Shown here one piece after another: positions 13,444-15,210 of a stretch of DNA of 64,000 nucleotides. The position numbers were made by a program, and so were the translations under genes. The stretch's first letter is position 1. Every line of letters begins with the position of its first letter. This DNA is from Octopus sinensis. Taxonomy: Eukaryota. The notes beneath the pieces are model-generated. The model did not search any database and was not told the DNA's origin. It saw only the letters and a program-made list of their open reading frames with translations. The stretch is from the NCBI RefSeq assembly GCF_006345805.1, contig NC_042997.1, forward strand, positions 150,164,001-150,228,000. Reading direction: 5' to 3'.

Positions 13444-13582
13444 AGGTGGTGCTATTAAGTTAGACATGGCCTGGGCCAATAATGGCCGAAACCTATCAAA
13501 GTATCAAAGTATCAAAGTATATATATATATATATATATATTTATAAAGGAAGATACATAAGTTTCTATAGGTTTATTATTTA

Positions 13583-13721
13583 TATTATTTACATTTGACA
13601 GATATTTGTTCTCATCTTGTTTGTTATTAACCCAACGTTTCGGCTGATATGCCCTCCAGCCTTCATTAGGTGTCTTGGGGAAATTTCGAACCTGAGTTCG
13701 CATTCCTAAGATATCTTTCGA

Positions 13722-13813
<92 letters not shown>

Positions 13814-13875
13814 TCACTACCTGGAATCGAACTCGGAATCTTGGAGTTAGCAGGCTGCGCTCTTAACCACTTACG
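13583..13875 (-). mobile_element. tRNA-headed SINE-like element with a hammerhead-like 3' module (left, inverted copy)
   Basis: Minus strand: 'cgtaagtggttaagagcgcagcctgctaactccaagattccgagttcgattcc' (A box, B box), then (AAT)n, then 'gacac ctaatga a ggctg..cagcc gaaa cgtt'. Confidence 0.8.
13629..13675 (-). ncRNA. Minimal hammerhead-like motif (core G5 changed to A)
   Basis: CTAATGA-A-GGCTG/CAGCC-GAAA-CGTT. Confidence 0.6.
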
Positions 13876-13881
13876 AGCTCT

Positions 13882-14110
13882 GGCTGCTAACCCCAAGATT
13901 CCGAGTTCGATTCCTGGCAGTAACATGAATAATAATAATATCATCGAAAATTACCTTAGGAATGAGAACCCAGGTTCGAAATTTCCCCAAGATACCTTAT
14001 GAAGGCTGGAGGGTATATCAGCCGAAACGTTTTGTTAACAACAAACAAGTTGAAGACAAATATCCATCAAATGTAAATAATGTACATAATTCCTCATCTC
14101 TTAAATATAG
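13882..14110 (+). mobile_element. Same tRNA-headed/hammerhead element (right copy, A box missing, 3' extension present)
   Basis: 'ggctgctaaccccaagattccgagttcgattcctggcag...' is the reverse complement of the left copy and continues further 3' to 'tcttaaatatagaa'. Confidence 0.8.
13990..14036 (+). ncRNA. Minimal hammerhead-like motif (core G5 changed to T)
   Basis: CTTATGA-A-GGCTG gagggtatat CAGCC-GAAA-CGTT-ttgtt. Confidence 0.6.
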
Positions 14111-15210
14111 AATTGAATTCTATATATTTATAGGCATTTATATGCATATGCATGTGTGTGTGTACGCATCATTTGGCATACCAAGATGTATATTTAGTAA
14201 CCTGAGGTACAATATAACATAATAGCTTAATCAGTACACTGAGTAGTCTATTGACGTTTCTACAAACATACCTGCTTTTGATGGTATTGCTGCTGCTGTT
14301 ACCATTGTTGCCCTTGTAGCATTTAAAGAATATATGATCATTATCATCGCCATCAATATCATGATCATTATGATAGTCACCGTCGTTGCCATCATTATTA
14401 TCATCAACCCATCTCTTACTGGCTTGCATCTTCTTAATAGTTAGCATCGTTATCTTCATCATCATTACAACAGTAAGTAGACTAATAGCGGGTCAGGCTT
14501 CCTACGCTTTTCCGCCAGAGCAAATAGGTTTTAAAATATTAATATAAATCGACTGTAATCCTCTTGCAAAGTGTGGCCATTGTTAATGTCTTGGAAAACA
14601 TTTTCGCCAGAGCGACGATAAATTTTCAGAATCGGTAGGGCATTAATATATTACGTATTGTTCTATACGCCCTCTCCAATTTCTGAAGCTTGCTAACTTG
14701 TTTTCATGTGAAAGATGGAGTCAGCCATCAGCTAAGTCTATTGAGACACCCGTCGATCCGATATTTTTGACCGGGAAGGCCAGTCGGTCTTTATATGTTT
14801 GTTGGTGAACAAATATGAAAAGGCTGAAGTGAGGCATATTTGACTTGGGGTAAAGCTCATCTAAGATTTCAAGTTTAGACAGTGATGGAAAATGAGACTG
14901 CAAAGTGAAATCCTAATACCCAGCAAATATGGTTAAAGGTAGAAGAGAATGGAGACTATGGTCTGTATAAAGAAGCTGGTTCTGTGCATGCGCCTACAGT
15001 CTGGAGAATGATGACTGGGGAGCATATTTAACCTTAATGATCAAGGTGACCGTTGATTTAAGGGATTTGTATGAGTAGACATCGAAAGTCTTCCCACTAC
15101 TTGGGAATATTTCTGTGTAACAATTTGTTTATATTCCTTTTTGCACGCATTATGCATATGTATATGATGTACGTATATAAACCCAAACGGTATGATCTTG
15201 TACTATTATT

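What the first reader, a model, noticed from the sequence alone, without database searches (positions are those of the whole stretch)
13583..14110. tRNA-headed SINE fused to a Penelope-type hammerhead, inserted as a head-to-head inverted pair
Seen: each ~230-290-nt unit has a tRNA-like head (A box 'agtggttaag', 'ctgctaa' anticodon-like loop, B box 'gagttcgattcc'), an (AAT)n linker and a compact motif gacac-CTnATGA-a-GGCTG/CAGCC-GAAA-CGTT. Combining the two copies (gggtt, ttgtt) gives GTGTT, which closes stem I with GACAC. The copies face away from each other, one is 5'-truncated, only one has the extra 3' tail, and the left end is near (TA)n. Established: Penelope-like elements carry minimal hammerheads with a palindromic stem III in their pseudo-LTRs and often insert with an inverted truncated copy; typical SINEs borrow LINE tails. 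Inference: this is a Pol III-driven, non-autonomous SINE/retrozyme hybrid mobilised by Penelope RT/GIY-YIG, an architecture I do not recognise as well described. Caveat: both copies differ from the catalytic G5 (A in one, T in the other).
Basis: partly seen in the sequence, partly recalled or inferred. Interest (0 to 1): 0.9.

Follow-up and report, generated by a model that had tools for sequence, protein, structure and literature searches.

The report
Penelope retrotransposon with built-in tRNA promoter

Summary
The anatomy is real, but this is not a free-standing SINE. The unit is the pseudo-LTR of an RT + GIY-YIG-type Penelope family (thousands of copies in G000, ~92-94% identical to the family majority). 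In ORF-bearing copies the tRNA-like head follows the ORF stop by ~25 nt (23 of 26), and the hammerhead region is the ORF's first ~50 codons. Head-to-head pairs (53 of 84 loci) and a 3' tail on only one arm (41 of 47 pairs) are textbook Penelope features. G5 is intact in 74 of 84 copies; the window's changes are private decay. Short and ORF-linked copies share one majority sequence and age, so no separate SINE lineage is visible. What is unusual: the pseudo-LTR starts with a tRNA-colinear A/B-box head, arm 5' ends pile up at tRNA +1 (43 of 89), and the 2.6-kb sense strand has no TTTT (expected ~4-6; zero in 1 of 75 other Penelopes). Best reading: Pol III-type transcripts starting at +1 are copied by internally primed Penelope RT into SINE-like fragments. 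Pol III use and cleavage are untested; RNA-seq was uninformative. New variant of a known kind.

The parts
13575..13875 (-). Left arm: 5'-truncated Penelope pseudo-LTR, ends at the first 3' site (no tail)
13810..13875 (-). tRNA-like head from about +11 (A box cut short; B box 13834-13823)
13724..13809 (-). (AAT)n linker, about 28 units
13701..13703 (-). ATG of the Penelope ORF (inferred start)
   Evidence: alignment with ORF-start copies L361, L372
13629..13674 (-). Minimal type I hammerhead motif, G5 changed to A (13667), stem I 3' strand altered
13875..13881 (.). Head-to-head junction of the two arms (one shared G, no spacer)
13875..14112 (+). Right arm: 5'-truncated Penelope pseudo-LTR with tail
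13875..13927 (+). tRNA-like head from about +23 (no A box; B box 13903-13914)
13928..13939 (+). (AAT)n linker, 4 units
13962..14112 (+). First ~50 codons of the Penelope ORF, open frame from ATG, containing the hammerhead
13991..14036 (+). Minimal type I hammerhead motif, G5 changed to T (13998); predicted cut 3' of 14031
   Evidence: cut site from the NUH rule (recalled)
14085..14112 (+). Optional Penelope 3' tail (~28 nt retained), on this arm only
   Evidence: PMC8557442, PMC11167929

Best explanation
The pair is two truncated copies of the end repeat (pseudo-LTR) of a reverse-transcriptase-encoding Penelope family, and they likely arose from RNA that polymerase III likely starts at the tRNA-like head. 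Shown: in the element the order is ORF stop, ~25 nt, tRNA-like head, (AAT)n, ATG, hammerhead inside the first codons, tail, rest of ORF; so an upstream pseudo-LTR places the head directly before the ORF. Inferred: the A/B boxes drive transcription from about +1 into a T4-free ORF; the Penelope RT-endonuclease binds this RNA, nicks AT-rich DNA and primes internally at two sites roughly 125-150 nt into the ORF (as shown for the anole element); each cDNA runs only ~290 nt to the RNA 5' end or stops short, and two cDNAs, one from each start site, join head to head. This yields SINE-looking fragments without any separate SINE lineage. The hammerhead would cut only as a dimer or with protein help (untested); both window copies are likely dead.
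For: Near full-length frameshifted element L062: RVT_1 E 9e-9; homologs carry RVT_1 + PF28514 + PF26215, some GIY-YIG; N- and C-terminal parts 40% and 56% identical to full-length P0024. ORF end continues into the head in 23 of 26 copies. Head-(AAT)n-hammerhead-tail runs straight into the ORF start in L361, L363, L368, L372, L383; L361 and L372 begin within ~6 nt of +1. Window 13962-14117 is an open 52-codon frame whose hammerhead codons match the P0024 N-terminus (9 of 16). Inverted arm in 53 of 84 unbiased loci; tail on exactly one arm in 41 of 47 pairs, both in 1. 43 of 89 arms end at -8..+10; end rate 0.048/nt against 0.004 (+26..+45) and 0.012 (-60..-31); contig depth in run X16 falls about 5-7-fold at the same boundary. 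Head colinear with genomic tRNAs, 44-47 identical positions in global alignment for the ten best, local z up to 9.6. No TTTT in 2,641 nt: expected 5.75, P 0.0035, other bases as expected; codon-shuffle P 0.010; zero T4 in only 1 of 75 other Penelope ORFs. 35 ORF-linked and 72 short copies share majority letters and divergence.
Against: No direct sign of Pol III activity: three RNA runs from another organism label show both strands equally and no start or end pile-ups. Palindromes at pseudo-LTR 5' ends and inverted junctions are known in Penelopes without tRNA heads (PMC3846280), and one sits exactly at +1 here, so the pile-up has a second explanation. The T4 test rests on one master lineage; G4 is also low in the RT-anchored set (12 vs 43); T4 runs recur near ORF position 1340-1365 in about six copies. 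Exact k-mer counts (3,847 head, 814 and 205 upstream) are not a clean measure because the last k-mer spans a variable site. No parent tRNA isotype identified; Rfam and ARAGORN give no hit. No intact ORF copy was seen. An uncapped Pol III RNA is a poor mRNA (general knowledge).
Confidence: 0.62

Rival explanations
1. Same Penelope pseudo-LTR, but the tRNA piece is a passive relic (an old SINE or tRNA pseudogene caught in the 3' UTR). The element is made by Pol II, and the 5' pile-up reflects the short palindrome at +1 acting as a stall or template-switch site.
For: Palindromes at pseudo-LTR 5' ends and head-to-head junctions are reported for rotifer Penelopes (PMC3846280 passages); the palindrome is present in ORF-linked copies; RNA runs show no discrete start; one control Penelope also lacks T4 in its ORF (L281).
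Against: The palindrome is itself a degenerate fold-back of the head's first ~10 nt, as expected if the RNA ended there; ends also fall at +1..+10 with unrelated flanks; T4 absence over the whole unit is not predicted, and L281's own pseudo-LTR is T-rich; no free SINE with this head and another tail was seen in 27 loci.
Confidence: 0.25
2. One reading: an independent non-autonomous tRNA SINE with a Penelope tail that re-amplifies from its own short copies and was secondarily fused into the Penelope.
For: Short copies outnumber ORF-linked ones (12 of 84 loci carry 3' ORF sequence); unit has A/B boxes and no T4; Schistosoma Sm-alpha precedent; non-autonomous Penelope derivatives are known.
Against: No diagnostic column and equal divergence between 35 ORF-linked and 72 short copies; the head is part of nearly all ORF-bearing copies; the anole element needs ~55 nt of ORF beyond the priming site (PMC11167929), which solo copies here lack; most solo copies are 5'-clipped or CpG-decayed.
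Confidence: 0.12

Closest known systems
EN+ Penelope-like elements, Penelope/Poseidon type (e.g. anole PAc; PMC11167929, PMC8557442, PMC3846280)
   Same: Single RT + C-terminal endonuclease ORF, pseudo-LTR overlapping the ORF start, hammerhead in the first codons, inverted 5'-truncated copy, optional 30-40-nt tail on one end, AT-rich targets.
   Different: Pseudo-LTR begins with a tRNA-colinear A/B-box head plus (AAT)n; sense strand T4-free. No A+B pair found near 80 other Penelope loci (limited sensitivity). Clade not placed by a tree.
Minimal PLE hammerheads (Cervera & de la Pena 2014, PMC4209133)
   Same: CUGAnGA core, one bulged base before stem II, short stem I, no stem III with palindromic ACGU, pairs on opposite strands 100-700 bp apart.
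   Different: None in the motif; cleavage not tested here.
Schistosoma Sm-alpha / Sj-alpha SINE-like repeats (review passage PMC6765202)
   Same: Pol III promoter followed by a type I hammerhead in a short dispersed repeat.
   Different: Those are non-coding, often tandem, with canonical hammerheads; here the unit is part of the coding element and mostly inverted.
TRIMp3: Cassandra, Helenus, Ajax (Kojima 2024, PMC10886601)
   Same: Small-RNA-derived Pol III promoter inside a terminal repeat.
   Different: Those are non-autonomous LTR elements under 1.3 kb; that paper argues their autonomous partners must use Pol II. Here the repeat belongs to a 2.6-kb coding Penelope.
Animal non-LTR retrozymes (PMC7229834; bioRxiv 10.64898/2026.07.22.740005)
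   Same: Short hammerhead units related to Penelope pseudo-LTRs.
   Different: Retrozymes are head-to-tail tandems giving circles; tandems of the short unit are rare here (L077, L121) and no tRNA head is mentioned in the passages read.

Membership tests
EN+ Penelope-like element | PLE-type RT in a single ORF | tested here: met
   RVT_1 E 9e-9; 92 homologs with PLE domain sets; copies seen are frameshifted
EN+ Penelope-like element | C-terminal GIY-YIG endonuclease | tested here: inconclusive
   No Pfam hit on the fragments; 56% identical to the P0024 C-terminus with C-x-C, VYKGET, EH and HW..R..KEA-type motifs (motif labels recalled); some homologs carry PF01541
EN+ Penelope-like element | Pseudo-LTR overlapping ORF start, partial tandems | tested here: met
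EN+ Penelope-like element | Inverted 5'-truncated copy and optional tail on one end | tested here: met
   53 of 84 loci; 41 of 47 pairs
EN+ Penelope-like element | Placement in the Penelope/Poseidon clade by RT tree | not tested
   no named reference sequences on hand
Minimal type I hammerhead | Core CUGAnGA, GAAA, NUH; stems I and II | tested here: met
   Family majority has all; 23 of 84 copies keep the core, 4 of 84 core plus stems; both window copies fail at G5
Minimal type I hammerhead | Rfam hammerhead model hit | tested here: not met
   none at E<=10
Minimal type I hammerhead | Self-cleavage (dimer or protein-assisted) | not testable with these tools
   no read-end pile-up in RNA runs, which is uninformative
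tRNA-derived SINE | tRNA-derived head with A and B boxes | tested here: met
   colinear with genomic tRNAs, z up to 9.6, parent isotype unresolved
tRNA-derived SINE | Head absent from the partner autonomous element; own lineage | tested here: not met
   head in 23 of 26 ORF-end copies; no diagnostic variants
tRNA-derived SINE | Transcription by Pol III | not testable with these tools
   indirect support only
tRNA-derived SINE | Simple-repeat 3' end and target-site duplication | tested here: not met
   ends at two fixed ORF positions; no TSD at the window locus
Non-LTR retrozyme | Head-to-tail tandem units with a hammerhead each | tested here: not met
   direct tandems rare among 87 loci

The most novel reading that the evidence does not exclude
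An autonomous retrotransposon transcribed end to end by RNA polymerase III: a Penelope that captured a tRNA promoter into its pseudo-LTR, purged every TTTT terminator from its 2.6-kb sense strand, and sheds tens of thousands of SINE-like fragments as a by-product, a direct route from an autonomous element to a SINE.
Probability: 0.35. Interest if true: 0.85.

Novelty: new variant of a known kind. Interest (0 to 1): 0.58.

Why it matters
Coding retrotransposons are assumed to need Pol II (or Pol I co-transcription); a Pol III-driven one would raise the question of how an uncapped RNA is translated and give the Penelope hammerhead a testable role. It would also show how SINE-looking repeats can be shed by a Penelope, so such repeats may be mis-annotated as SINEs, and may explain the origin of promoter-plus-hammerhead repeats like Sm-alpha. 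The one-arm-only tail (41 of 47 pairs) and sharp 5' boundary are a clean genomic test set for the internal-priming model of Penelope transposition.

Tried and rejected
Rfam and ARAGORN: no tRNA or hammerhead call. Monomer folding of 46-nt motifs gives only stem II or an inactive hairpin, no support either way. Exact k-mer counts as a coverage profile: rejected, the upstream control 21-mer spans a variable site, 7 of 12 near matches differ at one base. Parent tRNA: Asn guessed from recall, tested, no better than Ala, Arg, Cys or Lys; only 8 isotypes compared. No RNA holder listed for the unit; RNA runs X21-X23 of a same-label organism show both strands equally and no discrete ends, so they say nothing on Pol III or cleavage. 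A short intron in the tail was considered and dropped: the frame is open without it; the laid stretch did not cover the junction. A second Penelope family in G000 as an in-genome T4 control was sought and not found; the best places were again this family. No tRNA or Rfam family beside related Penelopes. No earlier findings of this scan. Literature searches listed no paper on a tRNA-headed Penelope pseudo-LTR; Repbase, Dfam, subscription journals and supplements were not seen, and two key papers were not held (Lunse 2017, Ferbeyre 1998).

Full report
1. Observation. The two arms are in the sequence as described. The left arm runs 13875 to 13575 on the minus strand, the right arm 13875 to 14112 on the plus strand, joined without spacer. 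Both are 5'-clipped (about +11 and +23 of the head), so neither keeps a whole A box. No target-site duplication is visible. The unit is a large repeat family in G000, a 2.7-Gb animal genome: 2,167 candidates, 40 scored at 93-100%, and 4,988 exact matches to one 24-mer with 0 for the reversed control. Rfam and ARAGORN call nothing relevant.

2. It belongs to a coding Penelope. Upstream of the head in L007 lies the 3' end of an ORF. A search with that end gave 3,018 candidates; of 26 independent copies 23 continue from the stop into the head and 18 (by regex; 19 by eye) into the hammerhead region, most exceptions being insertions in the (AAT)n linker (four self or duplicate loci left out). L062 holds a near full-length, frameshifted element: inverted partial repeat, direct tail, ORF, 3' repeat. 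Its RT hits RVT_1; 92 homologs carry RVT_1, PF28514, PF26215 and sometimes PF01541; its N- and C-terminal parts are 40% and 56% identical to full-length P0024. Among 26 independent ORF-start loci, five show head, linker, hammerhead and tail running straight into the ORF (L361, L363, L368, L372, L383). Window 13962-14117 is an open frame of 52 codons from an ATG, and its hammerhead codons match the P0024 N-terminus. So the 'SINE tail' is the start of the Penelope ORF, as in the anole and rotifer elements (PMC11167929 parts 1-2 of 4; PMC3846280 passages).

3. The inverted pair and the one-sided tail are ordinary for Penelopes. In 84 loci picked by genome position (90 fetched of the first 100 listed places; three overlaps and three duplicates dropped), 53 have an inverted family arm upstream; in 47 pairs the tail is on exactly one arm in 41, both in 1, neither in 5. 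This matches published descriptions (PMC8557442 passages; PMC4209133 parts 1-2 of 4, which report minimal hammerheads 100-700 bp apart on opposite strands) and the two priming sites shown in vitro for the anole element.

4. Hammerhead. G5 is G in 74 of 84 copies (A 4, C 2, gap 4); the only clearly polymorphic core position is the free N7 (T 58, A 22); 23 of 84 keep the whole core and 4 of 84 core plus stems; mean identity to the majority is 92%, the window arms 93 and 94 of 100. The window's G5 changes are therefore private decay. The same motif class was found by regex near the ORF ends of 18 of 80 Penelope loci from other organisms. Cleavage was not tested; published minimal hammerheads cut weakly, as dimers or with protein.

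5. tRNA head. The majority head aligns end to end with genomic tRNA genes, A box at position 8, 44-47 identical positions for the ten best, local z up to 9.6 over 27 genes of six isotypes plus two Asn genes; no single parent stands out. In 27 independent head-anchored loci (30 fetched, three duplicates dropped) 24 continue into the ORF-start sequence by eye and none into a consistent other tail; 8 are ORF-linked. Comparing 35 ORF-linked with 72 short copies shows the same majority letter at every column except one inside the 9-nt repeat; seven columns have nominal P 0.01-0.03, three of them inside the anchoring 24-mer; identity 93.4% against 94.2%. A separate SINE lineage is thus not visible.

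6. Signs of Pol III use. Of 89 arms with a head, 43 end at -8..+10, an end rate of 0.048 per nt against 0.004 for +26..+45 and 0.012 for -60..-31; 9 run into the ORF; 9 scored at -30..-9 are mostly fold-back junctions. Contig depth in run X16 drops about 5-7-fold at the same point (a rough measure). The 2,641-nt sense strand of L062 has no TTTT (expected 5.75, P 0.0035; A, C, G runs as expected; Markov nulls on the ORF P 0.012-0.048; synonymous-codon shuffle P 0.010). Column majorities over most of the ORF have none; decayed copies have 14 in 39.9 kb against 87 expected, though G4 is low too (12 against 43), and a few T4 recur near ORF position 1340-1365. In 80 other Penelope loci T4 runs are 548 against 436 expected and zero in 1 of 75 with expectation of 2 or more; that one has a T-rich repeat. 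None of the 80 has an A+B box pair by regex, but many lack flank and the regex found only one of two control loci. Against: exact k-mer counts are confounded; RNA runs from a same-label organism show both strands equally and no discrete ends; a palindrome sits at +1 and such palindromes occur in Penelopes without tRNA heads.

7. Mechanism. Shown: element anatomy, family consensus motif, inversion, one-sided tail, 5' pile-up, T4 absence. Inferred: transcription from the head by Pol III, internal priming at two sites, copying to the RNA 5' end, head-to-head joining. Confidence 0.62 for the whole; about 0.97 that the unit is a Penelope pseudo-LTR. Rivals: passive tRNA relic with palindrome hotspot (0.25); independent SINE (0.12).

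8. Known and new. Penelope anatomy and minimal hammerheads are known. A Pol III promoter with a hammerhead is known in Schistosoma repeats (PMC6765202 passages), and Pol III promoters inside terminal repeats are known in non-autonomous TRIMs (PMC10886601 passages). Retrozymes derive from Penelope repeats (bioRxiv 10.64898/2026.07.22.740005 part 1 of 5; PMC7229834 and PMC7761336 passages). Nine searches listed no tRNA-headed pseudo-LTR in a coding Penelope; PMC13282606 passages do not mention hammerheads. Repeat databases, subscription papers and supplements were not seen and may hold an entry. The host taxon was not established by any search. Verdict: new variant of a known kind, interest 0.58; 0.85 if the whole element proves to be a Pol III transcript (probability 0.35).

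Noticed in passing
L055 downstream of the 3' repeat; L006, L020, L084, L114, L123 at the linker: A restriction-like-endonuclease non-LTR element (Dong/R4-like by recalled motifs; translation) sits inside the (AAT)n linker, splitting head from tail: the Penelope supplies a microsatellite target for another retroelement.
   Followed up: partly
L357, L358, L360, L362, L368, L373, L374, L378, L379, L380, L382, L383: 12 of 26 ORF-start copies stop about 200-260 nt past the tail, several jumping to another repeat copy; may mark an RNA 3' end or a deletion hotspot. The query favoured copies with the first 200 nt.
   Followed up: no
L036:1645-1691: A 45-nt GT..AG skip, antisense to the Penelope ORF, in all three RNA runs (21-26 reads each) and not in run X16: antisense splicing or a deleted expressed copy.
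   Followed up: no
L036:1215-2170 (RNA runs X21-X23): A>G plus T>C differences are somewhat more numerous than C>T plus G>A in RNA runs (ratio 1.5-1.75) than in X16 (1.33); inverted pairs would form dsRNA open to A-to-I editing, but organisms differ.
   Followed up: no
window 14060-14095 and family copies: The 3' end holds a frame-preserving 9-nt repeat in one to three copies; the first 3' end site falls in it.
   Followed up: partly
L099, L100, L102, L103 (G000:C1 21.69-22.60 Mb); L035, L041-L043: Identical loci repeated: segmental duplication or redundant haplotigs in the assembly.
   Followed up: no
G000:C18:42004639-42047814 and C15:54159835-54183339: Dense clusters of a tRNA-Asn motif (35 and 8 matches; two confirmed as tRNA-Asn(GTT)).
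   Followed up: partly
window 13493-13518: Short tandem of an 8-nt unit between two (TA)n tracts just left of the insertion.
   Followed up: no
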